Positions 5,053 through 38,372 are shown, counted from the stretch's first letter. The stretch is 62,746 bases of DNA from Candidatus Woesearchaeota archaeon (GCA_021735165.1 JAIPHP010000004.1:1-62746); one strand, 5' to 3'. The notes: generated by a model from the letters alone, not told the origin. A program made the numbers and translations.

Positions 5053-6369
5053 TTGAAAGAAATGGCTAAAATAGCACAAGTATCAGCAAAATATATCATA
5101 CACGCAAAAATTTTTATTGAGGGCGTAGTTGATCGTCCGGATGTAATAGGTGCAATCTTTGGACAAACAGAAGGTCTCTTAGGAGCTGATTTAGAACTAA
5201 GAGAATTGCAAAAATCTGGAAGAATTGGTAGAATTGAAGTTAATGTAGATGTGAAAGGCGGTAAGACTTCTGGCGAAATAATAATACCGTCAAGTCTTGA
5301 TAAAGCAGAAACTTCAATTGTTGGAGCAGCAATAGAAATAATCCAAAGAATAGGACCTTGTAATGCGAAATTACAAGTTGATAAAATTGAAGATATTAGA
5401 GTTAGCAAAAGAGCTAAAGTTATTGAAAGAGCAAAAGAGCTTCTTAAAGATCTTATGGACAAATCAATGCCAGATTCTCAAGAATTGAGTGATGAAGTTG
5501 CTCATTCTGTAAGAATGATGGAGATTACAAGTTATGGCAGAGAAAATTTGAGTGCCGGACCCGGTGTTGATGAGAGCGATGAAGTTATTATTGTTGAAGG
5601 AAGAGCGGACGTTTTAAACTTGTTAAAGCATGGTTTTAAGAATGCTATTGCAATGAATGGAACTTCTGTTCCTCAGACAATAATTGAGTTAAGTAAAGAG
5701 AAAACAATCACTGTTTTTGTTGATGGTGATAGAGGTGGTTCTTTAATAACTCAGGAATTAATGGGTGTTGCTGAAATTGATTATGTAACAAGAGCTCCTG
5801 ATGGAAAAGAAGTAGAAGAATTGACTAAGAAGGAAATTCATAAGGCTTTAAGAGCTAAAGTTGCTTCTGAGCAAGCAAAACTTGAAATGACTACTGATTC
5901 TCAAAGAAGCACAAGTAGCTATTCTCAGAGGAGCACAAACAGTAGTTCTGCAAGCAATAGTCAAAGAAGACCTCCACAGTCAAGGCAGAGCAGTTATAGT
6001 TCTCAACGAAGTTCAAGTTCTTCAAGTTCAAACAGTAGCAGTTCATCATCTCAATCAAGAAGCATTAAAAAAGATGCTACTGCAGATGAGAAGAAGAAGT
6101 TTCAGAGTTTAATTGAAGATTTGATAGGCACTAGAGGCGCATATATTTTGGATGAGAAATTAAGTATATTAGGTAAAGTCCCTGTTAGTGAACTTCAAAG
6201 CACTATCAGAAGTCTTGGTTCTGGCATTTACGCAGTTGTGTTTGATGGAGAAGCAGATAAGGATCTTATTAATATAAGCGAAAGAGCAAGTATCAATTTT
6301 ATAGTTGCTATGAGTTCTCAAGTAAAAGATTCGACAAGATTAAAAATATATACTGTAAATGACTTGTAA
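5053..6369 (+). CDS. dnaG: Archaeal DnaG-type primase/exosome-associated TOPRIM protein
   Basis: KYIIHAKI...[48 protein letters not shown]; Ser-rich linker; probable start ATG 5062. Confidence 0.95.
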
Positions 6370-7080: not shown

Positions 7081-7542
7081 TCAACCATAACCTCCTTTCC
7101 ACGGACGAATATCTGTACTAAAAGAAGTATAAGTAATTTTGATAAAATCAACATCATTATCTTTGAATTTATGAAATTGTAATTCACATTTTTTTGTAGA
7201 TGATTTATAAGATATTTTTTTCCCAACCAATTCTTTAATAATTTGGTCAGCATCCTTTTCTGAGTCCGCCACATTTAATGATAAAATAAGTTCGTTTAAA
7301 GAAGAATAAGGTATCTTTTTTTCAAAGTTAAAAAATCCGATTGTTTTTTTCTTTAAATCATTAAAAGTTGCATATTTCAACTCTTCTCCAGTCATCAATT
7401 TATTTGTATTATTTTCTTTCGCAATCGTGAATTTTTCAATTATTGAATCATCTATGTATTTACTCATACTGAATGGAAATATAAAACAACTTATAAATGT
7501 TGTTATCTTCACTACATGACAGTAGCACATCTTTTCGGGCAA
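7081..7542 (-). CDS. Hypothetical protein (probable start at MSKYIDD)
   Basis: ORF with coding-like composition in line with neighbouring minus-strand genes; no family recognised. Confidence 0.55.
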   Translation of the reverse strand: MPEKMCYCHVVKITTFISCFIFPFSMSKYIDDSIIEKFTIAKENNTNKLMTGEELKYATFNDLKKKTIGFFNFEKKIPYSSLNELILSLNVADSEKDADQIIKELVGKKISYKSSTKKCELQFHKFKDNDVDFIKITYTSFSTDIRPWKGGYG

Positions 7543-7597
7543 ATAGGTTCTTTAATTTTAAACTCGTTTTGTTTTCAACTTTAAATTTAGAAATTGT

Positions 7598-8365
7598 TCA
7601 TTTTGCATGTTTTATTACAAAGTTAGAGATTATTTTTATCATCTCTTCAAATTCTCCCTCATTCTCAAAGTAATGTGTTGCATTTTCCATTATATGAAGC
7701 TCACAGTTCTTGAATATTTTTGATATTTTTTTGCTCTGTTTTACTGGAACATCAACATCTTTTGCTCCGTGAACTATTACTACAGGAATATCTATGTTTT
7801 CTGCTGCTTTGTAACCATCATTAGCATCATAGTCTTCAAAGAACGTGTAGTTAAGTTTTTCTTCATCTTGTGGTCTGCTTGATTTATGAGAAATGTATCC
7901 TTGTTCTTTCCAATTTTTGAGTTCTTCTTTTGATTTTTGTTCCAAGTGCTTATCTTTATAGTTTGATACAGGACATTTTAGTCCGAGAACGAACAAATCG
8001 TTTGTTTTTGAAGCTGCAATTGTGCTGCTTATTCCTCCAAAACTGCTCCCTATTAATCCTATTTTCTTGTATCCTTTTTCTTTCATTAATTCTATAGCTT
8101 TGAGTATCCCATCAGTTGCTTTTGTTATTGTTATTTCCTTGAATTTCCCGCCACTTTCTCCGTGGCCGTAAAGGTCAATTCTAAAAGAGGCAATATTGTG
8201 AATGTCAAATGTTTCTTTTAGAAATGTGTTTGTAGAATTGTTCTTATGAATAATAAAACCATGAACACATATTATTACTGGTTTTTCTTCTTCTGGATTT
8301 GGATCTGATAATATTCCTACAAGCTTTGTTCCAATTGAGTCTTTGAATGTTATTTTTTGTTGCAT
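7598..8365 (-). CDS. Alpha/beta hydrolase
   Basis: VHGF oxyanion motif, RIDLYGHGESGG, GSSFGG nucleophile elbow, HGAKDVDVP, H in NATHYF. Confidence 0.9.
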   Translation of the reverse strand: MQQKITFKDSIGTKLVGILSDPNPEEEKPVIICVHGFIIHKNNSTNTFLKETFDIHNIASFRIDLYGHGESGGKFKEITITKATDGILKAIELMKEKGYKKIGLIGSSFGGISSTIAASKTNDLFVLGLKCPVSNYKDKHLEQKSKEELKNWKEQGYISHKSSRPQDEEKLNYTFFEDYDANDGYKAAENIDIPVVIVHGAKDVDVPVKQSKKISKIFKNCELHIMENATHYFENEGEFEEMIKIISNFVIKHAK

Positions 8366-8374
8366 TTTTTCACC

Positions 8375-9295
8375 TTAATTTGCCATTTCATAATTAGTTA
8401 CATATTCTTCATAGCAAAATTTTACTATTGCTTGTTTCTTTCCTCTTCTTGTGTTGTTGAGTGCAGATATATATTTGTTTCTTCTCTTGCTTCTTATTGC
8501 GATTGGAAGGAACTCTTTATTCATCAGAAACCAAGCCATCAACAATCTCCCAACCCTTCCATTTCCATCTATGAAAGGGTGTATTATTTCAAATTGTGCA
8601 TGACTTTGAAATATCACTTCAAATTCATTCATTTTTTTGAATGCTTTTTTTATCCAAGTAAATAACTGCTTCATTTTTTCATCTACAAATAAGTAAGATG
8701 TTGTGTATTGATTATCAACATAATTTTGAGATTGTTTGTATTTTCCTAATGTTCTATCTTCTTCAATTGTCTTGTTGACTTTTTCATGCAGAATCATTAA
8801 ATCTTTTTCTGTAGGCATTCTCTTTTTGTTTTCTTCGATGTACTCCCATGCTTCTAAAAGATTTTCCGCCATGTTTATTTCTTTCTTTGTACTTCCTGAA
8901 GGAGAAATGTTTTCAAAGAGATATCTGGATGTTTCTTTTACTGTCATTGTTGATCCTTCTATTGCATTGCTGTTTGCTATGAATATGCTTAGGAATCTTT
9001 GTTTTTCTTTTTGTCGCGATATTTTGTCCAAAGATTTAAGATGTTCTTTGTATTCTTCTGAAGCTTTTTTCATTTCTTCGTGTCTCTGATAAGATAATTC
9101 ATCTTTAAAATCTGTAAGTACCCAATCTTTTTTTTCATATGAGAATTTCATGCAATCAAATTCTTCTTTGGGAATAGGTCTTTTTTTTCCTATGTATTTT
9201 ATCGTTTTTTGCTTAACTTTGTTTTTTTCTCGTATAGAGTCAACTAAGTATAAGTATTCGTTTCCTTTAATTTTTTTAGTTACTATACTGGCCAT
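8375..9295 (-). CDS. Fic family protein (predicted AMPylase)
   Basis: Complete Fic motif HPFIDGNGRVGR; SNAIEGST motif; N-terminal beta-rich KKIKGNEYLYL extension. Confidence 0.92.
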   Translation of the reverse strand: MASIVTKKIKGNEYLYLVDSIREKNKVKQKTIKYIGKKRPIPKEEFDCMKFSYEKKDWVLTDFKDELSYQRHEEMKKASEEYKEHLKSLDKISRQKEKQRFLSIFIANSNAIEGSTMTVKETSRYLFENISPSGSTKKEINMAENLLEAWEYIEENKKRMPTEKDLMILHEKVNKTIEEDRTLGKYKQSQNYVDNQYTTSYLFVDEKMKQLFTWIKKAFKKMNEFEVIFQSHAQFEIIHPFIDGNGRVGRLLMAWFLMNKEFLPIAIRSKRRNKYISALNNTRRGKKQAIVKFCYEEYVTNYEMAN

Positions 9296-9380
9296 TTTAG
9301 AAGTTAACCACTACAAATTTATATATTTTTCGACGAGAAACTAATTAGTTTATAAATAAGCAAAGAAGTTAACCACTACA

Positions 9381-10637
9381 TTATTTTGTCTTTAGCCATG
9401 CAACTTCTTCATCTGTTAAGTCTAGGTATTTTGATATTTTGTTTGCTTCTTCTTTGTTTTTCTTAAAGATTGCTTGCAAGAATGGAACTGTGCTGTAAAA
9501 CGCGTCTTTTTGACTTGTGTGCGTTTTTTGTGCTAGTTTTTGTGCTATTCCTTTTTTCTTTGCATTCGCATTATTTATTATCCATATTTTTAATAGTTTA
9601 GAAGATGGTTTGAATTTTGAGATTTTTGTTAGTTTTTCTTTTTTACTTAATGCTATTCCAGCGCTTAGCAGTTGATAGCAATATACGTAGAATCTATAAT
9701 ATTGCCATCTCCTTATTCTTCCAAAGAAAACGTTTGCTAAACTTAAATTTTGAAAAGCATTGTTCATTGTTTCTGGTTCTAAATATTGTTTTGGTATATT
9801 TTCTTCTACCCATAAAAATATTTTATCTAGGTCTTCTTCTATTTCATCGTATGCAGACAATGCAATTTCAGGGTTTGTTGTTTTGAAAATTAGTGTTAAT
9901 GCATCTTCTATTTTTTGCGTGTTTTTTCTTTGAGAAATTTCTTGTAAGTCTTTCATTTCTATTTTTTGTTTTCCTGTGCTTATTGTTTGTAAATCATTTA
10001 TGGCAGCCCTTATATCTCCGTCTGATGTTCTTGCTAGTTGTTTTAGTGCGCAATCTTCATATTTTATTTGCTCTTCTTTGCAAATTTTTTCTAAAACTTG
10101 TTTTATTTCGGATATTTCTGGTGTTTTGTATTCTATTAGTTCGCATTCTTTTCTTAGGGCTTTTACTTTGTCAGAATATGCGTCTTGTCCTATTATTATT
10201 ACGGGAAAGGAAGATTCTTTTATTATTTTGATTATTGATTGTATTCCCCCTCTGTCTTTCATTCCTGAAATTCCTTCTATTTCATCTATAAGTATTATTT
10301 TTTTTGTTCCAAACAGACTCATTTGTTTACTTGCACTTCCAAGTATTGATTCTATTGCGTCTTTATTTCGTGTATCTGATGCATTTAGTTCTATTAATTC
10401 GTAGTTTTCTTGACCCGCTAATGCGTATACTGAAGAGGTTTTTCCGTTTCCTCTACCTCCATATAAAAATATGCCTTTTTTTCCTTTTTTGTGTAGATTT
10501 ATTGCTTGTTTTAATTTATTTATTTGTATCGTTTGGCCTATAACAGAACTTGTTTTATTTGGTAAATATTTTTTTATCCATGGCACGTTTTTGTTCATGA
10601 TGTTAGAGTGTTTCTTGTATTTATATGTTTTATTCAA
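9381..10637 (-). CDS. rfcL: Replication factor C large subunit
   Basis: PWIKKYLP, Walker A GGRGNGKTS, IELNASDTRN, Walker B ILIDEIEG, GDIRAAINDLQ. Confidence 0.93.
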   Translation of the reverse strand: MNKTYKYKKHSNIMNKNVPWIKKYLPNKTSSVIGQTIQINKLKQAINLHKKGKKGIFLYGGRGNGKTSSVYALAGQENYELIELNASDTRNKDAIESILGSASKQMSLFGTKKIILIDEIEGISGMKDRGGIQSIIKIIKESSFPVIIIGQDAYSDKVKALRKECELIEYKTPEISEIKQVLEKICKEEQIKYEDCALKQLARTSDGDIRAAINDLQTISTGKQKIEMKDLQEISQRKNTQKIEDALTLIFKTTNPEIALSAYDEIEEDLDKIFLWVEENIPKQYLEPETMNNAFQNLSLANVFFGRIRRWQYYRFYVYCYQLLSAGIALSKKEKLTKISKFKPSSKLLKIWIINNANAKKKGIAQKLAQKTHTSQKDAFYSTVPFLQAIFKKNKEEANKISKYLDLTDEEVAWLKTK

Positions 10638-11142
10638 AGTTTAATGTCAGTTGTTCTTCTTGTTCTTTTTTTAATAAATTGTATAGATCGTTTGTTTCTA
10701 CTAAAACTTTGTTTAGTTTATTGTATTTTATGTTATGTATTAGTTCTATTTTTTCTTTTTTTATGTTTTTGTATGATTCAAAGTCGGGATTTACTGAGTC
10801 AAATAAGTATTGATTGTATTGTGATAAAGGTTTTTTTGAGAATGTTTCTGTCATGTCTGCTTGTTTTGAAATTAGGTTTAATATTAATAGCTTGTGATAA
10901 AATGTTTCTATCGCGAATTTTTTTAGATCGCTATGTTCAGGACATATTATCGAAGAAATGTTTATTATTTCGTTTATTACTTTCTTTTGATTTAATTGGG
11001 AGCGCGAATAGTATTCTTTTAGTAGCTTTTTTCCATCATTTTTTTTCAGTTGTTCCTCTTTATAAAAGAAGAAGTAATATGGGACTAAATCGACATCAAC
11101 CATCTCGTTTTTTATAATCATCATTGAGTGGGAAAAAGACAA
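10630..11142 (-). CDS. Hypothetical protein ending in clamp-motif-like EQLTLNFE
   Basis: ORF overlapping the annotated start of rfcL and co-oriented with it; probable start ATG 11103; helical and K/E-rich. Confidence 0.6.
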   Translation of the reverse strand: MSFSHSMMIIKNEMVDVDLVPYYFFFYKEEQLKKNDGKKLLKEYYSRSQLNQKKVINEIINISSIICPEHSDLKKFAIETFYHKLLILNLISKQADMTETFSKKPLSQYNQYLFDSVNPDFESYKNIKKEKIELIHNIKYNKLNKVLVETNDLYNLLKKEQEEQLTLNFE

Positions 11143-12755
11143 ATATATTTAAATTTGGCTGTTTTTCTAGGAAAATAATGAGAGATTTTATAGGGGGTTT
11201 GAGGAAATTACAAAAAGAAGGAGTGTTTGAAAATGTTAAAGTTGATGAATTAAGACTTGTTATTTCAAATAAGGGCATCAATATCCCCACAATCTATAAA
11301 GATAATTTAAAAAAAAGTGCGGACTTAGACAAAGACGATAAACCCAATAAAACAAGTTTTTCTAGGATTTTGAAAGATTTATCTGATATTTGTAAAATTT
11401 ATTTTAAAGAAGAATATTCTGGTCTTGTTTCTTCTTTGAATTATAATTCTGAAATTATTTTTGATAGTTCTGGTTTTTTACCTGGAGATTATTTGACTAG
11501 AAATTTTTTATTATCTCAAAATGTGAAAATTGAAGAGCTTTTAAATTATGGATTAGTAAAAAAAGTCGATGATTCTAATTATTTAAAAGATTACCTTTGT
11601 GTTGCAGATAATTCGTTAGTATTTACTGCAAAAAATTTCGAGAACAAAATAACAGGTTTTGTTTTAGAGACTGCAAACAGCGATTTGATCGAAATAAAAA
11701 ATCCTAAAAATGTAAATAATTTGATTTTGGGTCTTGATTTAATTGCGCCAAATGTTGATTCTAAATCTATTTATTTAGCGAGCAGTCCTAGTGACATGCT
11801 TAATTTGCAATCAGAAAAGAAACTGAGTATTTATTCAAAAAAAATTAATAATGACTTGTTAAATTTGTTAGATTCATTGCCTGATTTAAGACGTGTTGTT
11901 ATTAGCTATGACAAAAGAGCCAACAAATATTCAGAAAACGAATTAGGTGACAAAATAAAAAAAATATTGGTGTCAAGTAATAAGATATTAAGATTGAAAA
12001 ATGTAAATGAAAAAAAAGAAGAGTCTTTAGTATCTTTTTATTTGAAAAAAGATAGTTTGTCAAATAAAAGCGATTTGGATGAGTTAAGCTATGAATGGAA
12101 AAAGATCTCTAAATTACTAGTTAATTCTGATATTAGTCTTCAGTTAAGTTATTTAAATGAGTTTTCTAAAAGAACAGGTATTTCAAAAGACATACTTTTA
12201 TCAAGTCAACCAGATATAATTTTTAGTGAAACCGCAAAAGAAGAATCCGCGTGGCTTAATAATCAAGCAAACAAGAGTTATATTTTTGCTAATTATTTAA
12301 GTTTGCTCTTTTGTCAGAGTCAGGACATAGTAAAATCTTATTTGAAAGAAATACCTTCTAAAATGATATTGGAAAACAAACACCTTTTTTCTGAGCAGCA
12401 TACTAAATTATATTCTTTGTTAGAAGAAAATATTGATAATACTCATTTGATAAATTTCTTTCCGTTAAGAAAAATTAAAGGAAAATCTAAATCGTCGTAT
12501 CCTAATAAAGGAGAATATTATCATACATTACAAGGTCAACAGATTTATGAGGAATTATATAAAAATAGGCATGGTTCTAATAGTTTCCCTAGTGATGTCT
12601 TTGATATGTTAACAAAACCAATTAGTGATTTTGAGAAAATTAGTGTTTATGCAAATGAGATAAAAAACATTTTGCATGAAAATAATTATAAACGTAATAT
12701 TAATCAACACATATTATCTGTTTTTTTTGATAAAAAAACTCGTGTTGAAAATTAA
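11124..12755 (+). CDS. Degenerate bacterial-type DnaG primase homolog (catalytic acidic residues lost)
   Basis: Colinear resemblance to bacterial DnaG: GFLPG...EELLNYGLVKK (cf. GYAP...EEL..AGL), LVFTAKNFENKITGF (cf. IMFPI.D..G.VIGF), LILGLD (cf. LYGL), IYLASSPSDML (cf. IVEGYMDV), ISYDKR (cf. CFDGD), YLNEFSKRTGIS helical bundle. Confidence 0.65.
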   Translation: MSGKKTNIFKFGCFSRKIMRDFIGGLRKLQKEGVFENVKVDELRLVISNKGINIPTIYKDNLKKSADLDKDDKPNKTSFSRILKDLSDICKIYFKEEYSGLVSSLNYNSEIIFDSSGFLPGDYLTRNFLLSQNVKIEELLNYGLVKKVDDSNYLKDYLCVADNSLVFTAKNFENKITGFVLETANSDLIEIKNPKNVNNLILGLDLIAPNVDSKSIYLASSPSDMLNLQSEKKLSIYSKKINNDLLNLLDSLPDLRRVVISYDKRANKYSENELGDKIKKILVSSNKILRLKNVNEKKEESLVSFYLKKDSLSNKSDLDELSYEWKKISKLLVNSDISLQLSYLNEFSKRTGISKDILLSSQPDIIFSETAKEESAWLNNQANKSYIFANYLSLLFCQSQDIVKSYLKEIPSKMILENKHLFSEQHTKLYSLLEENIDNTHLINFFPLRKIKGKSKSSYPNKGEYYHTLQGQQIYEELYKNRHGSNSFPSDVFDMLTKPISDFEKISVYANEIKNILHENNYKRNINQHILSVFFDKKTRVEN

Positions 12756-12774
12756 ATTAACAATGTGATAACTT

Positions 12775-15000
12775 ATGAAAGAAAAATTGGTTAAATTTAT
12801 AGAACGTTCGGGAGGTATTGAAGAATTAATTAAAAAAAAAGAAGCTTTTAAGATCCCTTTAAAATCTAATACCACAATTTTTCCTTTTGATGAAGTTAAA
12901 GAAAAATTAAATAATTTTTTTGAAATCTATAAAGATAGTCCTCCTTCTACTTTAGAAGAAACTAAACGTTTGATGAATTTAAACAATAATGGCTTTCATT
13001 TAGCTAGTCAAGTAGAGTTTTGGGCAGAACTTATTGAAGGCAAAAGAACGTTTGGCAAAGGCATGAACATTTTCGGTTATGATTTTGGTTTTAGACTTAG
13101 AGAAGCTGATGTTGTTAAAATTATAAGAGACAACATAAGCATAGATTATTTGATAGAAGTGCATAACAATATTAAGTATCCTTTATCATTTAAAGATTTA
13201 ATAAAAGATGATTCTAAGAAAGCAATTAGAGCAAAAAATTATATTAAAAACAACAACAACATCAATATACGCAGCATTTTAGATAAGTCATTTCCCGAAA
13301 TTGTTGGTTTGACTGGTAAAACTGCTTATGAAATTTTGTATGATTTAGTTTCATTTGATGAAGCTAGAGACGAATTAAAAGACAGATTGTATTCTGGAGA
13401 AAAACTTGATAAGAATCATTTAAGAAACGACATATTTGGCAGGAAGATTTTTAATTTTTTATCTAGAAAAAAAGTTGAAATTTTAAAGAATGGAAAAAAA
13501 GTTGTTTTGACAAGACCAAGTGATTTAATCGCGTACACAATAAGTCCTCTCTTGAGCGGTCACGATATTGTTCCTGACAAACCAGGCACTATAAAGAGTG
13601 CTGCAACTTTACTTGAAAAATTAATAACTTTTTCTTTTTCAATAATTAGTAAATATGACCCTGAGTTGTCAAATTTTTCCGAGCTTAAAAATTTTGGTGG
13701 TTCTTTGAACAAAGTTTTTACTAGTTATGGTAAGCGAGCTTTAAATTTAGGCGTTAAGAAAATTTATCCAAAAAATTTATTTAGTAAAGAATGCAGAGAA
13801 AAAATAGAAAGAGTTGTCCCGGATGGAAGATTGGTTTTTGACGATTCTGAGGATATGTTGGAAATTAAAACTGCGCAGTACATATTTAAAAATGATTTTT
13901 ATGAGTCTGTTTCTAAGTTTAATAATTTTAAATATTGGTCGGATGGAAAAAGCATAGGTAAAAAAATACTTTTTGTTAATAATGCTAATGGAGATAAAGA
14001 AAGCATCATTTATCTTTGTAATAGAAATAATTGGAAGATTATTTTCGGAGATGATTTTCTTGAAACATATAATAAAAGTATTGATTTGCTTTTTGAAAAA
14101 GATGATGACTTTCATAGGATTTCAGTTATGAATGATAAGGAGACATTAAAAAAAGCGTATGACTCTCTTCTGAGCGTTCCTCATATTGAAATGAGAAGAC
14201 CTAATAAGTATAAATTGAAAAAGACAAGTGAACTTATTGAAAAAAACATTAAGTATTTGAAAGGTTTTGAAAAGATTAGCAAAACAAGAATAAAAAGATA
14301 TTGCGAATTAACAAAATTCAAATTGTCAGATTTTTCAAGTTTTTATGACCATGATTTATTTGATGATTCTTTTTCTAGGAAGGATATGAAAGGCGTTGTT
14401 TTTTATGATAGTGAAACAACAGGTTTTTTGAATCAGGGGTCTCTTATTGTGGCGCATTCCATTGCTAAGCTTTATGGAAATGATGTTTTTGCTTATGTTT
14501 ATTTTGTGAAAAATCCATATAATGAAAAGTTAATTCTTAAAAAAACAAATAAAAAATTAAAATCTGCTAAGAAAATTGTAACATTTAATGGGAATGTCTT
14601 TGATGATAAATTATATGCTAAGCGAAATTATATGAATTTGCTTAGAGAAGGAGAGTCAATTTCTAAAAAAGATCATTTAGATCTTAGAAAACTTTATTGG
14701 AAAACCTTTAGCGAACTTAAGGGTTATGCTTCGGGTAGTGTTCAAGATTATGAGCGTGGAATACTCGGGGCGATTAGAAGTACTTTTTTTAAAGAAAATG
14801 AAATGTCTGGCAAAGATGTGCCTTTAAATTATGGTGCGTATTTGCTTGGAGAGAAACATGAGGATTTGAAACATATGTTTTTGCATACTGCTTTGGATGT
14901 TTTTACTTTAGCTTATATGTATAAAGATTTTTTAAATTATGATTCTGATTTAGTTAAGAAAAACAAAATTGTTGAAGAGCAGCTCGAATTAGGTTTATGA
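12775..15000 (+). CDS. Large nuclease: PD-(D/E)xK-like domain plus C-terminal RNase H-like DEDD (YprB/RNase_H_2-type) exonuclease
   Basis: VPDGRLVFDDSEDMLEIKT motif; ExoI FYDSETTG, ExoII TFNGNVFD, HLDL, ExoIII HTALDV; ends EEQLELGL. Confidence 0.75.
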   Translation: MKEKLVKFIERSGGIEELIKKKEAFKIPLKSNTTIFPFDEVKEKLNNFFEIYKDSPPSTLEETKRLMNLNNNGFHLASQVEFWAELIEGKRTFGKGMNIFGYDFGFRLREADVVKIIRDNISIDYLIEVHNNIKYPLSFKDLIKDDSKKAIRAKNYIKNNNNINIRSILDKSFPEIVGLTGKTAYEILYDLVSFDEARDELKDRLYSGEKLDKNHLRNDIFGRKIFNFLSRKKVEILKNGKKVVLTRPSDLIAYTISPLLSGHDIVPDKPGTIKSAATLLEKLITFSFSIISKYDPELSNFSELKNFGGSLNKVFTSYGKRALNLGVKKIYPKNLFSKECREKIERVVPDGRLVFDDSEDMLEIKTAQYIFKNDFYESVSKFNNFKYWSDGKSIGKKILFVNNANGDKESIIYLCNRNNWKIIFGDDFLETYNKSIDLLFEKDDDFHRISVMNDKETLKKAYDSLLSVPHIEMRRPNKYKLKKTSELIEKNIKYLKGFEKISKTRIKRYCELTKFKLSDFSSFYDHDLFDDSFSRKDMKGVVFYDSETTGFLNQGSLIVAHSIAKLYGNDVFAYVYFVKNPYNEKLILKKTNKKLKSAKKIVTFNGNVFDDKLYAKRNYMNLLREGESISKKDHLDLRKLYWKTFSELKGYASGSVQDYERGILGAIRSTFFKENEMSGKDVPLNYGAYLLGEKHEDLKHMFLHTALDVFTLAYMYKDFLNYDSDLVKKNKIVEEQLELGL

Positions 15001-15087
15001 ATGGAATTTTAAAGTTAAATGTGGTGATTTGTTTCATTTCCTTTGTTTTTATCATAAAGAATTATCTTCTATATAGTATTTAATTAA

Positions 15088-16752
15088 ATGATAACCTTTT
15101 TATTTAAACAGAAATTAACACCATTTATGAATGAAGACAAAGAAGATAATCTTCTAAGCATCCGTGTTGATGAAACTAATAAATCCTTAAAAATGCCGCC
15201 TGCGTCCGAAGAAGCTGAAAAAAGACTTCTTGCAGGAATATTGGTTGATAATAAAAATTTAGATGCAATTATTGAAGAAAATATTCTAAAACCTGAACAT
15301 TTTTACAAAAAACAAAACAAAATGGTATATGCTGCTATGCTTGAAATTCATGAACATAATGCTACGGCAATAAAAGAAAAAAAAATTCAAATAGATGAGA
15401 TATCAATCTATGAACTTCTTAATAAAAAACAAAATATTTCAGAAGTAGGCGGCGCAGAATATTTGTCTAAATTATCTGAGATAAGTTTTTCCGGTGCCAA
15501 TACCAATTATTATTCTGCGCTTATTTATGAAAAATGGATTCGCAGACAAACTGTCGTTGCTTGTCTTAAAGCAAGTGAAGAGGCATATGAAAATGTCAAA
15601 GACACATTCGAGATTTTGCAGCAGACAATTAATAGACTTGCAAGATTGGCATCTGTACCTGAAAGAAACACAACATCTATTGATTCTGCCATAAAAGAAG
15701 TTAAAAATATTTACATAAATACAAAAAAAAGAAACGGAAATCCTGCCCTTTTAACAGGGTACCCTAAACTAGACTTATTAACTTATGGTTTAGCAGGAAA
15801 TTATATAACTTTAGTGCCTGCTGCAACAAAAATGGGAAAAACAACGTTTGCTTTAAACGTCGCAAAAAATGTTGCCGAGCTCAACAACAAAAGGGTTTTG
15901 TATATATCGCTTGAAGAAAATAAAAGACAAGACGCAATTAAAATTCTTTCAAGTATTTCAGGAGTTGATTCTTCTAAGTTTCATTTATATGAAGAATTGT
16001 CAAAAGAAGAAGATGAATTGTTATTAGATTCTTTTGAAAAAGGCAGTGATTTAAAAATCGATTTTTATGATGGAGATCCTAATACTGAAAACATATTAAA
16101 CGCGGTTGATCAGGAATTTGCGTTACATGATGATGTCTGTCTTGTTATTATTGATGTATTACAAGGGCATCCTGTAAGTGTAGATAATTTGCATTATAAA
16201 CCCGCTATTTATGGTAATTTTATTAGAAGTATTAAACAAGATATTGCCAAACATTATGACACGCATGTCCTTTTGACGTCTCAAGTAAAAGAGGAAGTTT
16301 CTACAGACATAAGAAAATATCCGGATTTTAGACCTAAAAGTATTTCAGACATCAAAGATGTGGAAGCAGGAATTGCAGATACTGTTAATAATGTTATTTT
16401 TTTATATAGGCCTAATCATTATTTTAAAGAAAAAGTTAATTTAGATGGAAATTATAGGAATCTAATTGATTTTCAATGTGAGTCAATTGATAAAGCAATA
16501 GAACACTATAGGTATTCTAAAAAACAAGATAAGGAAGCTAAAATAGATAATTTAAAAAAATCTAGAATATATAGATATAGAGAGGCTTTGAAAGAAAAAG
16601 AGGACGGTCTTAAAATCCCTCATTATATGTATAAACCTGAATTCAAAGATGCTATTCAGTTAATTCCTGTTCTTTCTAATATAGCCAGTACCGAGACTGC
16701 TTCTTTCATGCTCAAGTTTTATGGCAATACGAGCAGATTGAGTAATCCTTAA
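15088..16752 (+). CDS. Bacterial-type DnaB-like helicase/ATPase, divergent
   Basis: N-domain PPASEEAEKRLLAGIL; TGYPKLD, Walker A ATKMGKTT, ISLEE, Walker B VIIDVLQ, LTSQ, VIFLYR; probable start ATG 15127. Confidence 0.88.
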   Translation: MITFLFKQKLTPFMNEDKEDNLLSIRVDETNKSLKMPPASEEAEKRLLAGILVDNKNLDAIIEENILKPEHFYKKQNKMVYAAMLEIHEHNATAIKEKKIQIDEISIYELLNKKQNISEVGGAEYLSKLSEISFSGANTNYYSALIYEKWIRRQTVVACLKASEEAYENVKDTFEILQQTINRLARLASVPERNTTSIDSAIKEVKNIYINTKKRNGNPALLTGYPKLDLLTYGLAGNYITLVPAATKMGKTTFALNVAKNVAELNNKRVLYISLEENKRQDAIKILSSISGVDSSKFHLYEELSKEEDELLLDSFEKGSDLKIDFYDGDPNTENILNAVDQEFALHDDVCLVIIDVLQGHPVSVDNLHYKPAIYGNFIRSIKQDIAKHYDTHVLLTSQVKEEVSTDIRKYPDFRPKSISDIKDVEAGIADTVNNVIFLYRPNHYFKEKVNLDGNYRNLIDFQCESIDKAIEHYRYSKKQDKEAKIDNLKKSRIYRYREALKEKEDGLKIPHYMYKPEFKDAIQLIPVLSNIASTETASFMLKFYGNTSRLSNP

Positions 16753-21056: not shown

Positions 21057-21113
21057 TTGTTTTAACTTTTAGCAAAAATCTTTATAAACGAATTAGTTTC
21101 TCTTGTTAATGAT

Positions 21114-21256
21114 GGGGACATAGTATAACCTGGCTAGAATGGCTGGCTCCAGTACTTTTATTGGAGCGATGAGACTTGTTTGTCGATGATTAGCGTTTTA
21201 GCGCGTTTTAAAGTGAGAGATACCAGCAGATTTGGGTTCGAATCCCAATGTCCCCA
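21114..21256 (+). tRNA. tRNA-Trp (CCA) with 69-nt intron at position 37/38 (21153-21221)
   Basis: Acceptor GGGGACA/TGTCCCC-A, anticodon stem GCTGG/CCAGC, CCA at 21149-51, T arm TTGGG-TTCGAAT-CCCAA; TTTATAAA TATA box at 21081. Confidence 0.93.
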
Positions 21257-22760: not shown

Positions 22761-25106
22761 TCATTTTCTTTTAGAATTTTTCTTTTTGGTTGTTGGTTTC
22801 TTTTGTATTATTGGTTCTGGTTGTTTTTGTTGTTTTTTTTTAAAGTATGGCGTGAATAGTATTATTATTAGCAGAATTATTATTAGTGCGTTGTTTATGA
22901 ATGAACAGTTTTGTTCATAGAAGTCTAGCGGCTTTATTTCTGCGGTGTCTATTACTTCTAGTCTTATTCTTGGACTTTTTATTTCTTCCTCTGCAGGATC
23001 TTTTGCTATTATTTTAATTTCGTCTTTGCCGTACCAGTCTTTAGTTGGTTTTAGTGTTGCTTTGTTATCTTTGAATGTTATTTGTATGTTTTCTAGTGGT
23101 TTTTCTAGTTCGTACGATAAGGTGTCATTGTCTGGATCTTGGAAGTATTTTGTTAGATCTAATTCGTATTTTGTGTCTTCGTACCATATTAAGTAAAATT
23201 TATCGTTTACTTTTTCTTGGTCAAGTTCTGGTAAGTCGTATTTTGGTATGTTGTTTACTAACACATTTATTATAATTATTAGTATTATGATTATTGTTGT
23301 TATTAGTATGAATGTTGTGTTGTGTTTTGATTTTTTTATTGAGTATCTTATTATGAGCATTATTGTTGCTATGATTATTAGTATTAGTAGGATTGCAGTT
23401 ATTTTTTTGCAGGTTGTTTGTGTGAAGTATTTGTATAGTGTTTCTTGTATTGGTTCTGAGACCATTTTTAATTTGAATTGTTGTGTGTATTCTTGTTTTG
23501 TTTCGTCTGAGGTTATTTTCAGTGTGAAGTATTGTGTTTCTTGTGGCGCTTCTGTTTCTTGGTTTGCGTATAGTTTTATTTGTATGTATTCTGTTTCTTG
23601 ACTTTTTATTTCTATTTCTTCTGTTTGTAGTTCTATGAATTTTGGTCCTTCATATTTTATATTGTAATTTGTTTCTAGTATACCTATGTTTTTTATAGGT
23701 ATTGTTGCGTAGTTTTCTTCATATCTTACTTTTAAGGATTTTTCCGGAAATTCTAGTTGTGTGCATTGGTAGTTGTCTTTTATGATTATTTTTTGCGAAT
23801 CTTTGAATATTTGGTTTACATCTTTTTCGTGTATTGTCGCGGAAACATATATTGTGAATTCTTCTGTTCTTTCGTATTTTTCTATTAGGAGTTTTGTTTG
23901 TTCTGTTTCTCCTGCTGATATTTCTAGTTCTTGGTCTTCTAGTTGTGTTATTTCTGTTGGGTCGTAGAGCCATAGTTTTATTTTTTCGTCATTTAGTCCG
24001 TTGTTGTGTATTTTTATTGGTATTTCGTGCTTGCCTGTGCATAGTTCTTGTGGTTTTGGTCCTTGTATTTCTACTTGCATATCAAAGCAGTTTAGTGTTT
24101 TTATTGTTGTGTTTTGGCTTGTTTTTAGATCTCCTTTTTTAGATTCTGTGTTTATTGTTATTGTGTGTTCTCCTTCTGCTGTTGGTTGTATTTCTAGATA
24201 TGTTTGTTTTTCTTTTCCTTTTTCTATGCTTATTGTGTTTTCTGTGGTTTTTATGAAACTTGGCGTATTTTGTAAGTTTATTGTGTATTCATTGTCTACT
24301 TTTCCGTTGTTTTTTATGTCTATTGGAATTCTTGTTTTTTCGTTAACACAGTAGTATGCTTCTTGATGTATTTGTACGTCGTAATTGTATGCTCTGTTTA
24401 TTTCTATTTGGTGTTCTAATAGAGATATTAGTTGGTTGTTTATTGATTCTATTATGAATTGATTTGTTTTGTTGCCATAGTCTTCACAAGATGCTTGGTA
24501 TGTGAAGTTTTGTGTTCCTGTTTGATTTGAGTTTAGTGTTAGTTCGTATGTTTGATTTTGAAATTTTAGTAAATATTGTTCTTGGAATGGGCTTGGGTTT
24601 GTTAGGTATATTGTGTATGTTGTTGATTGGCAAGGATCTATTTTTTCTTTCGCAGTATATAATTGTGCATCTATTGTTTGGCATCTTATTGTTTGTAGAT
24701 TTCGTGTTATTGTTTTTGTATTGCCATAGTTGTTAGTTATGTATACTTCATAGTTTTTTGTGTGTTCTTCTTGGCAATTTGCTTGTAAGAATAAGTCTAC
24801 GTATATTTTTTCTCCAGGTTCTAGGTGTATTTGTCCAGGAGGCGATGCTACGTTTTGTAGGTTTGATGTTACTTTGTAGTCTGCTCCGAAGCTACCTGTG
24901 TTTTCTATGTATATTTTGTCGTATTGTGTTGCACAAGAACAAATTGTTGGCGTTGGTGTGATTGCTCCTGCCATAAAGTCGTAGCTTATTTTGTATAGAT
25001 TAACGTCAAAATTTGTTGCTGCTGATGTTGTTTGCAGTATTAGTATAAACATTAAAGTAACTACACCTAAGAATTTTGTGATTTTTGTAGTTTGGTGCAG
25101 TTTCAT
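22761..25106 (-). CDS. Membrane-anchored surface protein with tandem Ig-like (CARDB/NEW3-like) and cadherin-like domains
   Basis: Signal peptide; repeated IKNNG/IHNNG/IKNIG strands; two internal TM helices; DLTKYFQDPDNDTLSY; C-terminal TM and basic tail. Confidence 0.75.
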   Translation of the reverse strand: MKLHQTTKITKFLGVVTLMFILILQTTSAATNFDVNLYKISYDFMAGAITPTPTICSCATQYDKIYIENTGSFGADYKVTSNLQNVASPPGQIHLEPGEKIYVDLFLQANCQEEHTKNYEVYITNNYGNTKTITRNLQTIRCQTIDAQLYTAKEKIDPCQSTTYTIYLTNPSPFQEQYLLKFQNQTYELTLNSNQTGTQNFTYQASCEDYGNKTNQFIIESINNQLISLLEHQIEINRAYNYDVQIHQEAYYCVNEKTRIPIDIKNNGKVDNEYTINLQNTPSFIKTTENTISIEKGKEKQTYLEIQPTAEGEHTITINTESKKGDLKTSQNTTIKTLNCFDMQVEIQGPKPQELCTGKHEIPIKIHNNGLNDEKIKLWLYDPTEITQLEDQELEISAGETEQTKLLIEKYERTEEFTIYVSATIHEKDVNQIFKDSQKIIIKDNYQCTQLEFPEKSLKVRYEENYATIPIKNIGILETNYNIKYEGPKFIELQTEEIEIKSQETEYIQIKLYANQETEAPQETQYFTLKITSDETKQEYTQQFKLKMVSEPIQETLYKYFTQTTCKKITAILLILIIIATIMLIIRYSIKKSKHNTTFILITTIIIILIIIINVLVNNIPKYDLPELDQEKVNDKFYLIWYEDTKYELDLTKYFQDPDNDTLSYELEKPLENIQITFKDNKATLKPTKDWYGKDEIKIIAKDPAEEEIKSPRIRLEVIDTAEIKPLDFYEQNCSFINNALIIILLIIILFTPYFKKKQQKQPEPIIQKKPTTKKKNSKRK

Positions 25107-25181
25107 TTTTAATATTCACACTAGTTTTGAACTGTTTTTTTATTTATTTTAAAAAATTAAGAAAAAAAAGTTAAGGAAGTT

Positions 25182-26483: not shown

Positions 26484-26613
26484 TTGTACTGACCTCCGTA
26501 GTAATTTTTTCCCCTACGATTTTTGTAGGATAAACTTTGATATTTATAAATGTTTTGTGTATGTTCTCATTTTTTAGTGAATAACTTTTGTTATTTCTCA
26601 AGGATTGTTATAA

Positions 26614-35719: not shown

Positions 35720-35720
35720 A

Positions 35721-36071
35721 ATGAAAAATAACTTAAAACCTATTTTTCTTGTAATTGTGGTTACACTCATGATCGCAATTGGACAATACTTTCTAAAACT
35801 ATCTACCAATGAAAGTGGAGAACTTACAATTTTGATAACTAACTGGCACTTATGGCTCGGCCTCATATTGTATGGTGTTGGAGCCATATTTCTTGTGCTC
35901 GCGCTAAGAAAACTTAATGTCAGCACAGCATATCCTATGATGTCTCTAAGTTATATCTGGGTCCTTATAATTGCTGTAATATACTTTGAAGAAATAGTTT
36001 CATTTTGGAACATATTAGGAATGCTTTTTATAATTTCAGGAATTATTGTGCTGGGAGGAAAGAATGAATAA
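35721..36071 (+). CDS. EamA/SMR-like small transporter (ArnE/ArnF-like)
   Basis: Four TMs; AIGQYFLK, STAYPMMSLSYIWV. Confidence 0.8.
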   Translation: MKNNLKPIFLVIVVTLMIAIGQYFLKLSTNESGELTILITNWHLWLGLILYGVGAIFLVLALRKLNVSTAYPMMSLSYIWVLIIAVIYFEEIVSFWNILGMLFIISGIIVLGGKNE

Positions 36072-36405: not shown

Positions 36406-36407
36406 AA

Positions 36408-37408: not shown

Positions 37409-37423
37409 GAGGAATATTGAAAA

Positions 37424-38371: not shown

Positions 38372-38372
38372 A

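What the first reader, a model, noticed from the sequence alone, without database searches (positions are those of the whole stretch)
10630..16752. Bacterial replisome-derived cassette in an archaeon: dead DnaG, double nuclease and divergent DnaB
Seen: three co-oriented genes (DnaG-like 11124-12755, PD-(D/E)xK plus DEDD nuclease 12775-15000, DnaB-like 15088-16752) and a divergent small ORF, between rfcL and a glycosyltransferase. No integrase, capsid or terminase gene lies nearby. Established: archaea replicate with MCM and PriSL, and DnaB and DnaG are interacting partners in bacteria. Inference: the primase has lost its catalytic residues while the nuclease keeps its own, and all ORFs are long and intact. 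That fits a repurposed machine better than a decaying phage replication module. Candidate roles are a replisome-mimic or ssDNA-sensing complex that licenses a nuclease (anti-virus or anti-plasmid defence), or a fork-processing complex. I do not recognise this combination among described defence systems.
Basis: partly seen in the sequence, partly recalled or inferred. Interest (0 to 1): 0.88.

Follow-up and report, generated by a model that had tools for sequence, protein, structure and literature searches.

The report
Foreign helicase–exonuclease cassette in a Woesearchaeon
A small DPANN archaeon carries a 6.1-kb foreign four-gene insert with a badly eroded bacterial-type DnaB helicase, a large protein ending in an intact 3'-5' exonuclease and two genes with no relatives anywhere; the claimed "dead DnaG primase" has no support, so this is an interesting one-off, not a demonstrated new system.

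Summary
The four ORFs are at the stated coordinates. The host is a Woesearchaeota (DPANN) chromosome. In the two closest genomes, rfcL and the glycosyltransferase sit about 60-70 bp apart. The whole 6.1-kb block, including the small divergent ORF, is therefore a lineage-specific insertion.

- **ORF3** is a two-domain DnaB-family protein. It keeps Walker A, Walker B and the catalytic Glu. It has lost 29 of 59 near-invariant DnaB positions, including Arg finger R to K and most of motif H4.
- **ORF2** has a C-terminal PF13482 / MrfB-like DEDDh exonuclease with its catalytic residues intact. Its "PD-(D/E)xK" is only a motif (p about 0.06).
- **ORF1** ("dead DnaG") has no CHC2 zinc finger. It scores at shuffle level against DnaG and TOPRIM profiles that do detect the host's own archaeal DnaG. 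It has no homolog among 1.84 billion representative proteins.

AlphaFold2 failed on ORF1 and ORF2, so the fold question stays open. No related cassette, PADLOC hit, integrase or att site was found.

My best reading is a mobile-element-derived helicase-exonuclease module that is still under selection. A defence role is possible but untested.

The parts
10630..16752 (.). Whole inserted block (about 6.1 kb, about 97% coding), absent from the closest relatives
   Evidence: In L001 and L002 the rfcL and DUF6938-glycosyltransferase homologs are 59 and 68 nt apart, with an otherwise collinear gene order. There are no terminal direct or inverted repeats beyond chance. GC3 and codon usage fall within the host range.
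10630..11124 (-). Small ORFan (165 aa from ATG 11124; 170 aa from TTG 11142). It is divergent from ORF1 and co-oriented with rfcL.
   Evidence: ORF listed. No hit in Pfam, PHROG, PADLOC or NCBIfam. No tblastn match in 130 loci. The K/E/N-rich product is typical of this genome, whereas the opposite-strand ORF is an F/L-rich shadow.
11141..11156 (.). Palindromic TATA-like element AAATATATTTAAATTT in the 53-bp gap between the divergent ATGs
   Evidence: Read directly from the sequence. It lies about 25-30 nt from each ATG (11124 on the minus strand, 11178 on the plus strand). It is inferred to be a bidirectional archaeal promoter for leaderless transcripts; this was not tested.
11124..12755 (+). 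ORF1, a 543-aa ORFan (525 aa from ATG 11178, as in the database gene call). Function unknown; a DnaG relationship is not detectable.
   Evidence: Only a self-hit in the 5.8-billion word search and in the exhaustive phmmer of 1.84 billion representatives. No family or PDB hit even at E <= 10. DnaG HMM 1.9 bits, within its own shuffles. TOPRIM HMM -0.6 bits. hhalign probability 0.08%. AF2 pLDDT 39.
12775..15000 (+). ORF2, a 741-aa multidomain protein. The N-terminal 540 aa are uncharacterised.
   Evidence: Only a self-hit in the word search. No relatives in viral or metagenome contigs. AF2 pLDDT 33.
13819..13869 (+). PD-(D/E)xK-like motif PDGRLVFDDSEDMLEIK (ORF2 residues 349-365). Candidate only.
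   Evidence: The pattern occurs once, and 6.2% of 2000 shuffles carry at least one such match. No PD-(D/E)xK profile or PDB hit. No Cas4-type Cys cluster: Cys only at residues 340, 415 and 510.
14398..14925 (+). DEDDh 3'-5' exonuclease domain of ORF2 (residues 542-717; PF13482 / MrfB-like)
   Evidence: PF13482 6.8e-17, 62.3 bits against a cutoff of 22, profile positions 1-162 of 165. MrfB 8un9 at E 4e-4, with the DxE, NGxxFD and HxxxD motifs aligned. phrog_403 'DNA polymerase exonuclease subunit' at 2.5e-3.
15088..16752 (+). ORF3, a divergent DnaB-family (SF4) ATPase/helicase (554 aa; 541 aa from ATG 15127). Its stop codon overlaps the convergent glycosyltransferase stop by 4 nt.
   Evidence: PF00772 and PF03796. 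phrog_19 4.3e-45. The best NCBIfam hits score about 160 bits, all far below their equivalog cutoffs. Only 30 of 59 columns conserved at >=85% are retained. GKT, SLE Glu, Walker B Asp, Q346 and Q386 are kept. RP before the P-loop, the R of SQLNR (now E), the Arg finger (now K) and ESGxIEQDAD (now DVEAGIADTVN) are changed.

Best explanation
The block is a horizontally acquired cassette, most likely from a mobile element. It inserted just upstream of the rfcL promoter in one Woesearchaeota lineage.

It encodes a helicase-nuclease DNA-processing module with four parts:
- a DnaB-family (SF4) ring ATPase;
- a large protein whose C-terminal DEDDh domain degrades DNA 3'->5';
- a lineage-specific partner protein, ORF1, which may act as loader or adaptor;
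- a small divergently transcribed ORFan.

Proposed mechanism (inferred). The DnaB-like ATPase loads on single-stranded DNA and translocates or unwinds. This exposes 3' ends or flaps that ORF2 trims. ORF1 tethers or loads the ATPase. The most likely original role is replication or recombination of a virus or plasmid of these archaea. The element's other genes are gone, and the four remaining ORFs are still kept open by selection.

Shown: the insertion, the DnaB-family membership with eroded trans-acting and DNA-binding motifs, and the intact exonuclease site. Inferred: the physical coupling, the role of ORF1, and the mobile-element origin.
For: - The insertion is shown by collinear synteny in L001 and L002.
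- SF4/DnaB helicases outside bacterial chromosomes are overwhelmingly replication proteins of phages and other mobile elements, and are almost absent from archaeal viruses and cells (PMC4889955).
- ORF3's best family hits are phage/bacterial replicative DnaB. Its nearest homologs sit in rplI-dnaB loci or in prophage initiator-DnaB modules.
- The exonuclease belongs to PF13482. That family includes phage clusters, is related to the PolB exonuclease domain, and is known to work with a helicase partner, as in MrfA/MrfB (PMC3985635; abstract of PMC11194089).
- The DEDDh residues are intact.
- ORFans with no homolog among 1.84 billion representatives are typical of the undersampled DPANN mobilome.
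- Four open frames fill about 97% of 6.1 kb at 27% GC, which argues against neutral decay.
- The tight operon spacing (19 and 87 nt) and a shared TATA-like element fit co-expression.
Against: - No integrase, att repeats, tRNA target, origin-like iterons, polymerase, recognisable primase or structural genes.
- Composition is indistinguishable from the host.
- A genuine replicative helicase would be expected to keep the Arg finger and motif H4. The 40 bacterial and prophage homologs keep these at 90-100%, and this protein does not.
- No related cassette was found next to any of 80 viral DnaB genes or in any collection, so nothing shows that these genes travel together.
- The coupling of helicase and nuclease is an inference from adjacency only.
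Confidence: 0.4

Rival explanations
1. The block is a domesticated helicase-nuclease defence or anti-plasmid cassette. The eroded DnaB-like ATPase senses or tracks foreign or replicating DNA and licenses ORF2 to degrade it. ORF1 and the small ORF act as sensor or regulator.
For: - It is a compact four-gene block inserted in a variable spot with no mobility genes, as defence cassettes often are.
- The other flank of rfcL carries a second window-specific insertion that includes a Fic-domain gene.
- Helicase plus nuclease is the commonest defence-system pairing, and MrfB-type exonucleases and inactivated RNase H folds occur in the defence-related YprA helicase family.
- Loss of conserved DnaB motifs while the ORF stays intact suggests a new function rather than replication.
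Against: - No PADLOC model matches, apart from a P-loop-only mad8 hit at 9e-4.
- There is no recurrence anywhere. ORF1 has no homolog in an exhaustive search. That is unusual for defence genes, which spread widely by horizontal transfer.
- No known defence genes are adjacent other than a Fic-domain gene.
- No experimental or comparative evidence of any kind exists.
Confidence: 0.25
2. ORF1 is a DnaG primase that lost its catalytic residues. Together with DnaB it forms a replisome-mimic that controls the nuclease.
For: - By eye, ORF1 residues 216-265 can be put in a TOPRIM-like register: IYLASSPSDMLNL, then 43 aa, then VVISYDKRANK, against E. coli LLVVEGYMDVVAL, then 44 aa, then VICCYDGDRAGR (my reading). 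The TOPRIM HMM placed the second element in the same register.
- The low-confidence AF2 model shows a beta-alpha-beta pattern at residues 204-275 and a helical C-terminal third.
- ORF1 residues 414-449 and 511-533 weakly resemble the DnaB N-domain / DnaG C-domain helix: 5.2 bits, 10 of 1000 shuffles as good, hhalign E 0.053.
- A dead TOPRIM would lose most of its profile score, so the negative sequence tests are not decisive.
Against: - No CHC2 zinc finger: Cys only at residues 13, 90, 159 and 397, and no zf-CHC2 hit.
- The full-length DnaG HMM gives 1.9 bits, ranking ninth among ORF1 and its 200 shuffles. The TOPRIM HMM gives -0.6 bits, with 254 of 762 reported shuffles as good or better. hhalign probability is 0.08%.
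- The same profiles detect the host's archaeal DnaG at 39.7 bits, 35.3 bits and 95%.
- BLASTP against E. coli DnaG, a primase-helicase fusion and the archaeal DnaG finds nothing.
- No Toprim family appears even at E <= 10.
- No homologs exist that would link ORF1 to any primase.
Confidence: 0.07
3. The block is a non-functional remnant of an integrated virus or plasmid that has not yet accumulated stop codons. The eroded DnaB motifs reflect relaxed selection.
For: - 29 of 59 near-invariant DnaB positions are lost.
- The block lacks the rest of any element.
- It is a singleton with no relatives.
Against: - Four ORFs of 165-741 codons remain fully open in a 27% GC background where stops arise easily.
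- The ATP-site core of the helicase and all DEDDh residues of the exonuclease are retained.
- Codon usage is host-like, which implies long residence or co-adaptation.
- DPANN genomes are streamlined (established knowledge).
Confidence: 0.15
4. The block is an assembly chimera: bacterial or phage DNA wrongly joined into an archaeal contig.
For: The cassette is bacterial-like in its gene families and unique to this contig.
Against: - GC, GC3 and codon usage match the flanking archaeal genes.
- Both junctions are seamless. There is a 4-nt stop overlap with the glycosyltransferase, and a TATA-like motif like the one conserved upstream of rfcL in L001 and L002 also lies upstream of the window's rfcL start.
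- Host synteny resumes exactly on both sides.
Confidence: 0.02

Closest known systems
Bacterial/phage replicative helicase DnaB (SF4; PF00772 + PF03796; TIGR00665 / TIGR03600)
   Same: ORF3 has the two-domain architecture: the N-terminal helical domain with hairpin, the linker and the RecA-like C-domain. It keeps Walker A GKT, the catalytic Glu of SLE, the Walker B Asp and the motif H3 Gln.
   Different: - It is only 24-30% identical to any homolog and scores below every NCBIfam cutoff (about 160 bits against 385-898).
- The Arg finger is Lys, and ESGxIEQDAD (motif H4, implicated in DNA binding; PMC1950529) is replaced.
- The RP before the P-loop and the R of SQLNR are lost.
- The C-terminus is extended and divergent by about 100 aa.
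- It is encoded in an archaeon, next to a nuclease rather than next to rplI or a phage initiator.
MrfB/YprB-type DEDDh exonuclease (PF13482, COG3359), partner of the MrfA helicase
   Same: The ORF2 C-terminal domain matches PF13482 over its full length and aligns to MrfB with the catalytic residues conserved. It is also encoded beside a helicase.
   Different: - The partner helicase is SF4 DnaB-like, not SF2 YprA/MrfA.
- ORF2 carries a 540-aa uncharacterised N-terminal region.
- The similarity to MrfB itself is weak (E 4e-4).
COG2251 / TM0106-type 'RecB family nuclease' (DUF83 PD-(D/E)xK + PF13482)
   Same: If the ORF2 motif at residues 349-365 is a real PD-(D/E)xK site, the order nuclease then PF13482 exonuclease matches this described architecture (PMC3985635).
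   Different: No NCBIfam hit of any kind, hence none to the TM0106-family model, at E <= 10. No DUF83, Cas4 or PDDEXK Pfam hit. No Cas4-type Cys cluster. Membership is not established.
Bacterial DnaG primase (zf-CHC2 + TOPRIM core + DnaB-binding C-domain)
   Same: ORF1 has a similar length and is encoded upstream of a DnaB-like gene, as in many phages (PMC4889955). There is a weak, non-significant resemblance between the ORF1 C-terminus and the DnaB-N / DnaG-C helix.
   Different: No zinc finger, no detectable TOPRIM and no homologs. Controls with the host's own DnaG were positive.
Helicase-nuclease anti-phage systems (e.g. Hachiman, Gabija, DISARM/Druantia YprA-family systems)
   Same: It is a compact operon that pairs an ATP-driven DNA motor with a nuclease, inserted in a variable locus.
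   Different: None of these systems uses an SF4/DnaB motor. No PADLOC model matches. No recurrence or defence-island context has been shown.

Membership tests
Bacterial DnaG primase (ORF1) | N-terminal CHC2 zinc-binding domain | tested here: not met
   No zf-CHC2 hit at E <= 10. Cys occurs only at residues 13, 90, 159 and 397, and no His lies before residue 420. The upstream frame is closed by a stop, so no missing N-terminus exists.
Bacterial DnaG primase (ORF1) | TOPRIM catalytic core (conserved Glu, DxD) detectable by profile | tested here: not met
   The 8-sequence DnaG HMM run with --max gives 1.9 bits, inside ORF1's own shuffles. The TOPRIM-only HMM gives -0.6 bits, with 254 of 762 shuffles as good or better. 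hhalign probability is 0.08%. The same profiles give 39.7 bits, 35.3 bits and probability 95% for the window's archaeal DnaG.
Bacterial DnaG primase (ORF1) | DnaG RNA-polymerase-domain fold | not testable with these tools
   Single-sequence AF2 gave pLDDT 39 and pTM 0.23. No homologs exist to build an alignment. A fold search on such a model would be meaningless.
Bacterial DnaG primase (ORF1) | C-terminal DnaB-binding helical domain (DnaB-N-like fold) | tested here: inconclusive
   The DnaB-NTD HMM gives 5.2 bits, and 10 of 1000 shuffles do as well. hhalign E 0.053, probability 1%. BLASTP against the window's own DnaB NTD finds nothing.
DnaB / SF4 replicative helicase (ORF3) | DnaB N-terminal domain plus RecA-like C-terminal domain | tested here: met
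   PF00772 1.1e-19 (residues 37-148) and PF03796 1.3e-23 (residues 221-448), both above the gathering scores.
DnaB / SF4 replicative helicase (ORF3) | ATP-site core: Walker A GKT, catalytic Glu, Walker B Asp, H3 Gln | tested here: met
   G237, K238, T239, E263, D343, Q346 and Q386 are retained (P0003 numbering).
DnaB / SF4 replicative helicase (ORF3) | Trans-acting Arg finger and motif H4 (RESGxIEQDAD); R of SQLNR | tested here: not met
   R410K, E411D, S413E, G414A, E417A, Q418D, D419T, D421N and R389E. These positions are 88-100% conserved in 40 homologs. The functional assignment of the Arg finger is from established knowledge of DnaB structures. The role of H4 in DNA binding is from PMC1950529.
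DnaB / SF4 replicative helicase (ORF3) | Score above the curated equivalog cutoff (TIGR00665, PRK05748) | tested here: not met
   160.7 bits against cutoffs of 385 and 525. The phage_DnaB model TIGR03600 gives 163.6 bits against 498.65.
PF13482 / MrfB-like DEDDh exonuclease (ORF2 C-terminus) | Pfam gathering score and full-length domain match | tested here: met
   62.3 bits against a cutoff of 22, profile positions 1-162 of 165.
PF13482 / MrfB-like DEDDh exonuclease (ORF2 C-terminus) | DEDDh catalytic residues | tested here: met
   FYDSETTG (residue 543), TFNGNVFDD (residue 603) and HTALDVF (residue 704) align with MrfB FFDTETTG, TYNGKAFD and HNEMDV.
COG2251 / TM0106-type PD-(D/E)xK + PF13482 nuclease (ORF2) | DUF83 / Cas4-like PD-(D/E)xK domain N-terminal to PF13482 | tested here: inconclusive
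   There is one motif match at residues 349-365, and 6.2% of shuffles match. No Pfam, NCBIfam or PDB hit for the region. AF2 failed with pLDDT 33.
Described anti-phage defence systems (PADLOC-DB v2) | Match of component proteins to system models | tested here: not met
   ORF1, ORF2 and the small ORF have no hits. ORF3 has only a P-loop-local mad8 hit, 9.4e-4 and 16.8 bits.
Described anti-phage defence systems (PADLOC-DB v2) | Recurrent co-occurrence of the genes across genomes or defence islands | tested here: not met
   No relative of ORF1 or ORF2 was found in 33 related archaeal loci, 80 viral DnaB loci, IMG/VR or JGI metagenome contigs. The exhaustive protein search for ORF1 returned only itself.
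Integrated provirus / plasmid | Presence/absence polymorphism against a syntenic backbone | tested here: met
   The block is absent from L001 and L002, where the flanking genes abut.
Integrated provirus / plasmid | Integrase, att direct repeats or tRNA target, structural or packaging genes | tested here: not met
   No such Pfam families occur in the neighbours. No boundary repeats beyond chance. The nearest tRNA is 4.4 kb away.

The most novel reading that the evidence does not exclude
The cassette is a so far undescribed archaeal immune or genome-surveillance system built on a domesticated SF4 (DnaB-family) ring ATPase. Its inter-subunit and DNA-binding motifs have been remodelled. It works with an active DEDDh (and perhaps PD-(D/E)xK) nuclease and with a partner protein, ORF1, that binds it through a DnaB-N / DnaG-C-like helical domain.
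Probability: 0.1. Interest if true: 0.75.

Novelty: new variant of a known kind. Interest (0 to 1): 0.4.

Why it matters
- DnaB-type helicases are the hallmark of bacterial replication. They are almost unknown in archaea and their viruses (PMC4889955). An intact but heavily remodelled copy in a DPANN archaeon, in an operon with an active exonuclease, is a concrete case of inter-domain transfer followed by divergence.
- If it proved to be a working system, for defence or for replication of an unknown Woesearchaeota mobile element, it would show a replicative-helicase scaffold reused outside replication, or reveal part of the unsampled DPANN mobilome.
- As it stands it is a single occurrence without relatives. 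Its value is as a candidate for structure prediction and biochemistry, not as evidence for a new class.

Tried and rejected
- **Homolog searches.** ORF1 and ORF2 returned only themselves in the word-index search. The exhaustive phmmer search for ORF1 also returned only itself.
- **Close-relative scans.** Scans of viral and metagenome contigs for ORF1, ORF2 and ORF3 found nothing. The single exception was a 25% GC bacterial rpsF-rplI-dnaB locus.
- **Structure prediction.** Single-sequence AF2 for ORF1 and ORF2 gave pLDDT 39 and 33. No fold search was run, because it would be meaningless on such models.
- **DnaG tests.** I ran BLASTP, a custom 8-sequence HMM, a TOPRIM-only HMM and hhalign. All were at noise level, with a positive control on the host's archaeal DnaG.
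- **hhalign shuffle control.** It timed out and was replaced by an hmmsearch shuffle control.
- **Genomic context of seven DnaB homologs.** These were bacterial chromosomes or Firmicutes prophages. None had an adjacent ORF2-like or ORF1-like gene.
- **80 viral DnaB loci.** Scanned by tblastn for ORF1, ORF2 and the small ORF; no hits.
- **Mobility and origin signals.** att sites, terminal inverted repeats, iterons, terminators and sigma-70-like signals showed nothing above shuffles.
- **Paralogs in the window.** None.
- **AEP primase idea.** I considered by eye an archaeo-eukaryotic primase reading of the ORF2 N-terminus (NGFHLAS). I rejected it because there is no DxD/DxE motif in register and no Pfam support.
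- **P-loop idea.** A P-loop in ORF1 (KGKS) or ORF2 (GLTGKT) was rejected because neither fits GxxxxGK[ST] and there are no AAA hits.

Full report
**Observation**

- 11124-12755 (+, 543 aa), here ORF1;
- 12775-15000 (+, 741 aa), here ORF2;
- 15088-16752 (+, 554 aa), here ORF3;
- 10630-11142 (-, 170 aa), the small ORF.

At about 27% GC roughly 8.5% of random codons are stops. Open frames of this length therefore cannot arise by chance: about 1e-21 for 543 codons, by my arithmetic.

The database gene calls start ORF1 at ATG 11178 (525 aa) and ORF3 at ATG 15127 (541 aa). The small ORF most likely starts at ATG 11124.

Between the two divergent ATGs lie 53 bp that contain a palindromic TATA-like element, AAATATATTTAAATTT, at 11141-11156. 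It sits about 25-30 nt from each start. That fits leaderless divergent transcription in an archaeon, but this is inference only.

**Host and context**

The window is archaeal chromosome. The evidence:
- RFC large subunit at 9381-10637;
- an archaeal-type DnaG with Toprim at 5053-6369, and STT3/AglB;
- ScpB and an Obg-like GTPase;
- an intron-containing tRNA and a 5S rRNA.

The GTPase finds Woesearchaeota / Nanoarchaeota MAGs at up to 75% identity.

The two closest genomes, L001 and L002, are collinear with the window: aDnaG, cyclophilin, rfcL, DUF6938-glycosyltransferase, GT1_3, a membrane protein, the GTPase, then orf169, Big-domain, orf433 and PKD genes. In both, the rfcL and glycosyltransferase matches are only 59 and 68 nt apart.

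The window therefore carries a 6.1-kb insertion (about 10630-16750) made of the small ORF, ORF1, ORF2 and ORF3. A TATA-like motif like the one conserved upstream of rfcL in L001 and L002 also lies upstream of the window's rfcL start (my reading).

A second window-specific insertion lies on the other side of rfcL at 7081-9295: orf153, an alpha/beta hydrolase and a Fic-domain gene. At that position L002 has a different gene and L001 has none. Both flanks of rfcL are therefore variable spots.

The following signs of mobility or foreign origin are absent:
- Integrase, capsid or terminase genes.
- A tRNA at the borders.
- Boundary repeats.
- Iterons.
- A compositional anomaly: GC3 is 0.20-0.27 and the codon-usage distance is 0.14-0.16, both inside the host range.

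This also makes an assembly chimera unlikely.

**ORF3: a DnaB-family protein with eroded motifs**

ORF3 is a DnaB-family protein. It matches PF00772 and PF03796, phrog_19 at 4e-45, and TIGR03600, TIGR00665 and PRK05748 at about 160 bits. Those scores are far below every curated cutoff.

Its best non-self homologs are only 24-30% identical. They are ordinary bacterial chromosomal dnaB genes next to rplI, or prophage dnaB genes preceded by DnaD-like or Phage_rep_org initiators. Phage DnaBs are equally distant.

I aligned ORF3 with 40 homologs. Of 59 columns conserved at 85% or more, ORF3 keeps 30.

| Retained | Changed |
|---|---|
| Walker A GKT | RP before the P-loop (100% conserved in homologs) |
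| Glu of SLE | R of SQLNR, now E (100% conserved) |
| Walker B Asp | Arg of the LRESG segment, now K (the Arg finger, from established DnaB structural knowledge) |
| Q346 and Q386 | Nearly all of ESGxIEQDAD, now DVEAGIADTVN (motif H4, implicated in DNA binding in SF4 helicases; PMC1950529) |

The C-terminal 100 residues are also divergent and extended.

So 'divergent DnaB' is confirmed. The documented loss of conserved functional residues is in this protein. It may still bind and hydrolyse ATP. Whether it is a processive ring helicase cannot be said.

**ORF2: an intact exonuclease and an unproven second nuclease**

Residues 542-717 match PF13482 (RNase_H_2) at 6.8e-17 over the full profile. 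They align with the DEDDh exonuclease MrfB (PDB 8un9), and the DxE, NGxxFD and HxxxD motifs are conserved.

PF13482 is a predicted 3'-5' exonuclease family related to the PolB exonuclease domain. It has several branches:
- COG3359 (YprB/MrfB);
- COG2251, a 'RecB family' branch that also carries a DUF83 PD-(D/E)xK domain;
- a phage cluster (PMC3985635).

A PD-(D/E)xK plus PF13482 'double nuclease' is therefore a described architecture.

In ORF2, however, the PD-(D/E)xK claim rests on one motif, PDGRLVFDDSEDMLEIK at residues 349-365. About 6% of composition-matched shuffles also carry such a motif. No profile or PDB hit covers the N-terminal 540 residues even at E <= 10. There is no Cas4-type cysteine cluster. 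AF2 failed with pLDDT 33. I treat the second nuclease as unproven.

**ORF1: no detectable DnaG relationship**

Searches of existing libraries and databases found nothing:
- No hit in Pfam, PHROGs, PADLOC, NCBIfam or PDB sequences, even at E <= 10.
- Only a self-hit in the word-index search of 5.8 billion proteins.
- Only a self-hit in the exhaustive phmmer search of 1.84 billion representatives.
- BLASTP against E. coli DnaG, a DnaG-DnaB fusion (P0064) and the window's own archaeal DnaG gives only noise.

I then built DnaG profiles from E. coli DnaG and phage primases and compared ORF1 with a positive control, the window's own archaeal DnaG:

| Test | ORF1 | Host's archaeal DnaG (control) |
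|---|---|---|
| Full-length DnaG HMM, filters off | 1.9 bits, ninth among ORF1 and its 200 shuffles | 39.7 bits |
| TOPRIM-only HMM | -0.6 bits, 254 of 762 reported shuffles as good or better | 35.3 bits |
| hhalign against the DnaG profile | probability 0.08% | probability 95% |

ORF1 also has no CHC2 zinc finger.

By eye, a TOPRIM-like register can be drawn, with Ser in place of the Glu and YDKR in place of YDGD at the right spacing. This is what a dead TOPRIM would look like. It was a post-hoc reading and is statistically indistinguishable from noise.

One weak lead remains. Two C-terminal segments (residues 414-449 and 511-533) resemble the signature helix of the DnaB N-domain, a fold shared with the DnaG C-domain. 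The score is 5.2 bits, matched by 10 of 1000 shuffles, and hhalign gives E 0.053. This is compatible with a DnaB-binding partner but is not evidence for one.

AF2 without an alignment failed (pLDDT 39).

**Recurrence**

I found no relative of ORF1, ORF2 or the small ORF in any of these:
- 33 related archaeal loci;
- IMG/VR;
- JGI metagenome contigs;
- within 8 kb of 80 viral DnaB genes.

PADLOC has nothing beyond a P-loop-local hit. As far as these collections show, the cassette is a singleton. The lineage is undersampled, though, and the ORF2 search was not exhaustive.

**Interpretation**

What is shown:
- A foreign four-gene block lies in a Woesearchaeota chromosome.
- It carries an SF4/DnaB-family ATPase with an intact ATP-site core and eroded trans-acting and DNA-binding motifs.
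- It carries an apparently active DEDDh exonuclease on a large unknown protein.
- It carries two ORFans.
- All four genes are open and tightly packed.

What is inferred is that these genes act together as a helicase-nuclease DNA-processing module.

I favour a mobile-element origin (confidence 0.4), with the module serving replication or recombination of an unsampled Woesearchaeota virus or plasmid. Two reasons support this. SF4 helicases outside bacterial chromosomes are overwhelmingly replication genes of mobile elements (PMC4889955). ORFans are also typical of that gene pool.

The main rival (0.25) is a domesticated defence or surveillance cassette. It would better explain the discrete cassette-like insertion without mobility genes, the neighbouring Fic insertion and the remodelled helicase. 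It is weakened by the complete lack of relatives and of PADLOC matches.

The other readings are less likely: an inert remnant (0.15), the specific dead-DnaG replisome-mimic (0.07) and a chimera (0.02).

**Novelty and score**

The component families are known: DnaB/SF4, and PF13482 exonucleases that work with a helicase partner, as in MrfAB. The combination, the archaeal host and the degree of DnaB remodelling make this a new variant of a known kind.

A bacterial-type DnaB in a DPANN archaeon is moderately surprising. The headline claim is unsupported, and a singleton cannot be analysed comparatively. I score interest at 0.4. The most novel reading not excluded is a defence system built on a repurposed SF4 ring with a DnaG-C-like adaptor. 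I give it a probability of about 0.1.

Noticed in passing
window 7081-9295: A second window-specific insertion lies between cyclophilin and rfcL. It holds orf153 (no family), an alpha/beta hydrolase and a Fic/DOC-domain protein (PF02661, 8.5e-16). L001 has nothing at that junction, and L002 has a different 298-aa lipoprotein-like gene with an HExxH motif. Both flanks of rfcL are therefore variable spots.
   Followed up: partly
window 5053-6369: This is the host's own archaeal-type DnaG (Toprim domains, 71% identical to L001). It lies 5 kb upstream of the cassette and served as the positive control for the DnaG and TOPRIM profiles.
   Followed up: yes
window 21114-21256: A 143-nt tRNA match in Rfam (42.8 bits), presumably intron-containing. 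ARAGORN reported no tRNA in the whole window.
   Followed up: no
window 9335-9356 and 21081-21102: A 22-nt inverted pair (95% complementary) that contains TTTATAAA. One copy lies upstream of the Fic gene and the other upstream of the tRNA. It looks like a shared archaeal promoter (TATA/BRE) motif.
   Followed up: no
window 11141-11156: A palindromic TATA-like element, AAATATATTTAAATTT, sits in the 53-bp gap between the divergent starts of the small ORF and ORF1, about 25-30 nt from each ATG. This suggests a bidirectional promoter with leaderless transcripts.
   Followed up: partly
window 11124-12755 (ORF1 residues 414-449 and 511-533): [quoted passage not shown] This is a lead for a DnaB-binding domain and is not significant.
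   Followed up: partly
window 22761-29562 and 32927-50351: There are large surface and glycosylation clusters. They include Big/PKD-domain proteins of 781 and 982 aa, STT3/AglB (930 aa), and a roughly 13-kb co-oriented operon of nucleotidyl-transferase, glycosyltransferase and asparagine-synthase genes. GC is lowest (about 25-27%) around 48-51 kb.
   Followed up: no
L001, L009, L011, L017, L027 (record titles): Several of the closest MAG records are titled 'uncultured Methanosarcinales archaeon'. They are nonetheless collinear with, and most similar to, Woesearchaeota / Nanoarchaeota MAGs. The public records are probably taxonomically mislabelled.
   Followed up: no
window 60849-60965: A 5S rRNA gene (63 bits) lies near the end of the window, which confirms a chromosomal context.
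   Followed up: no
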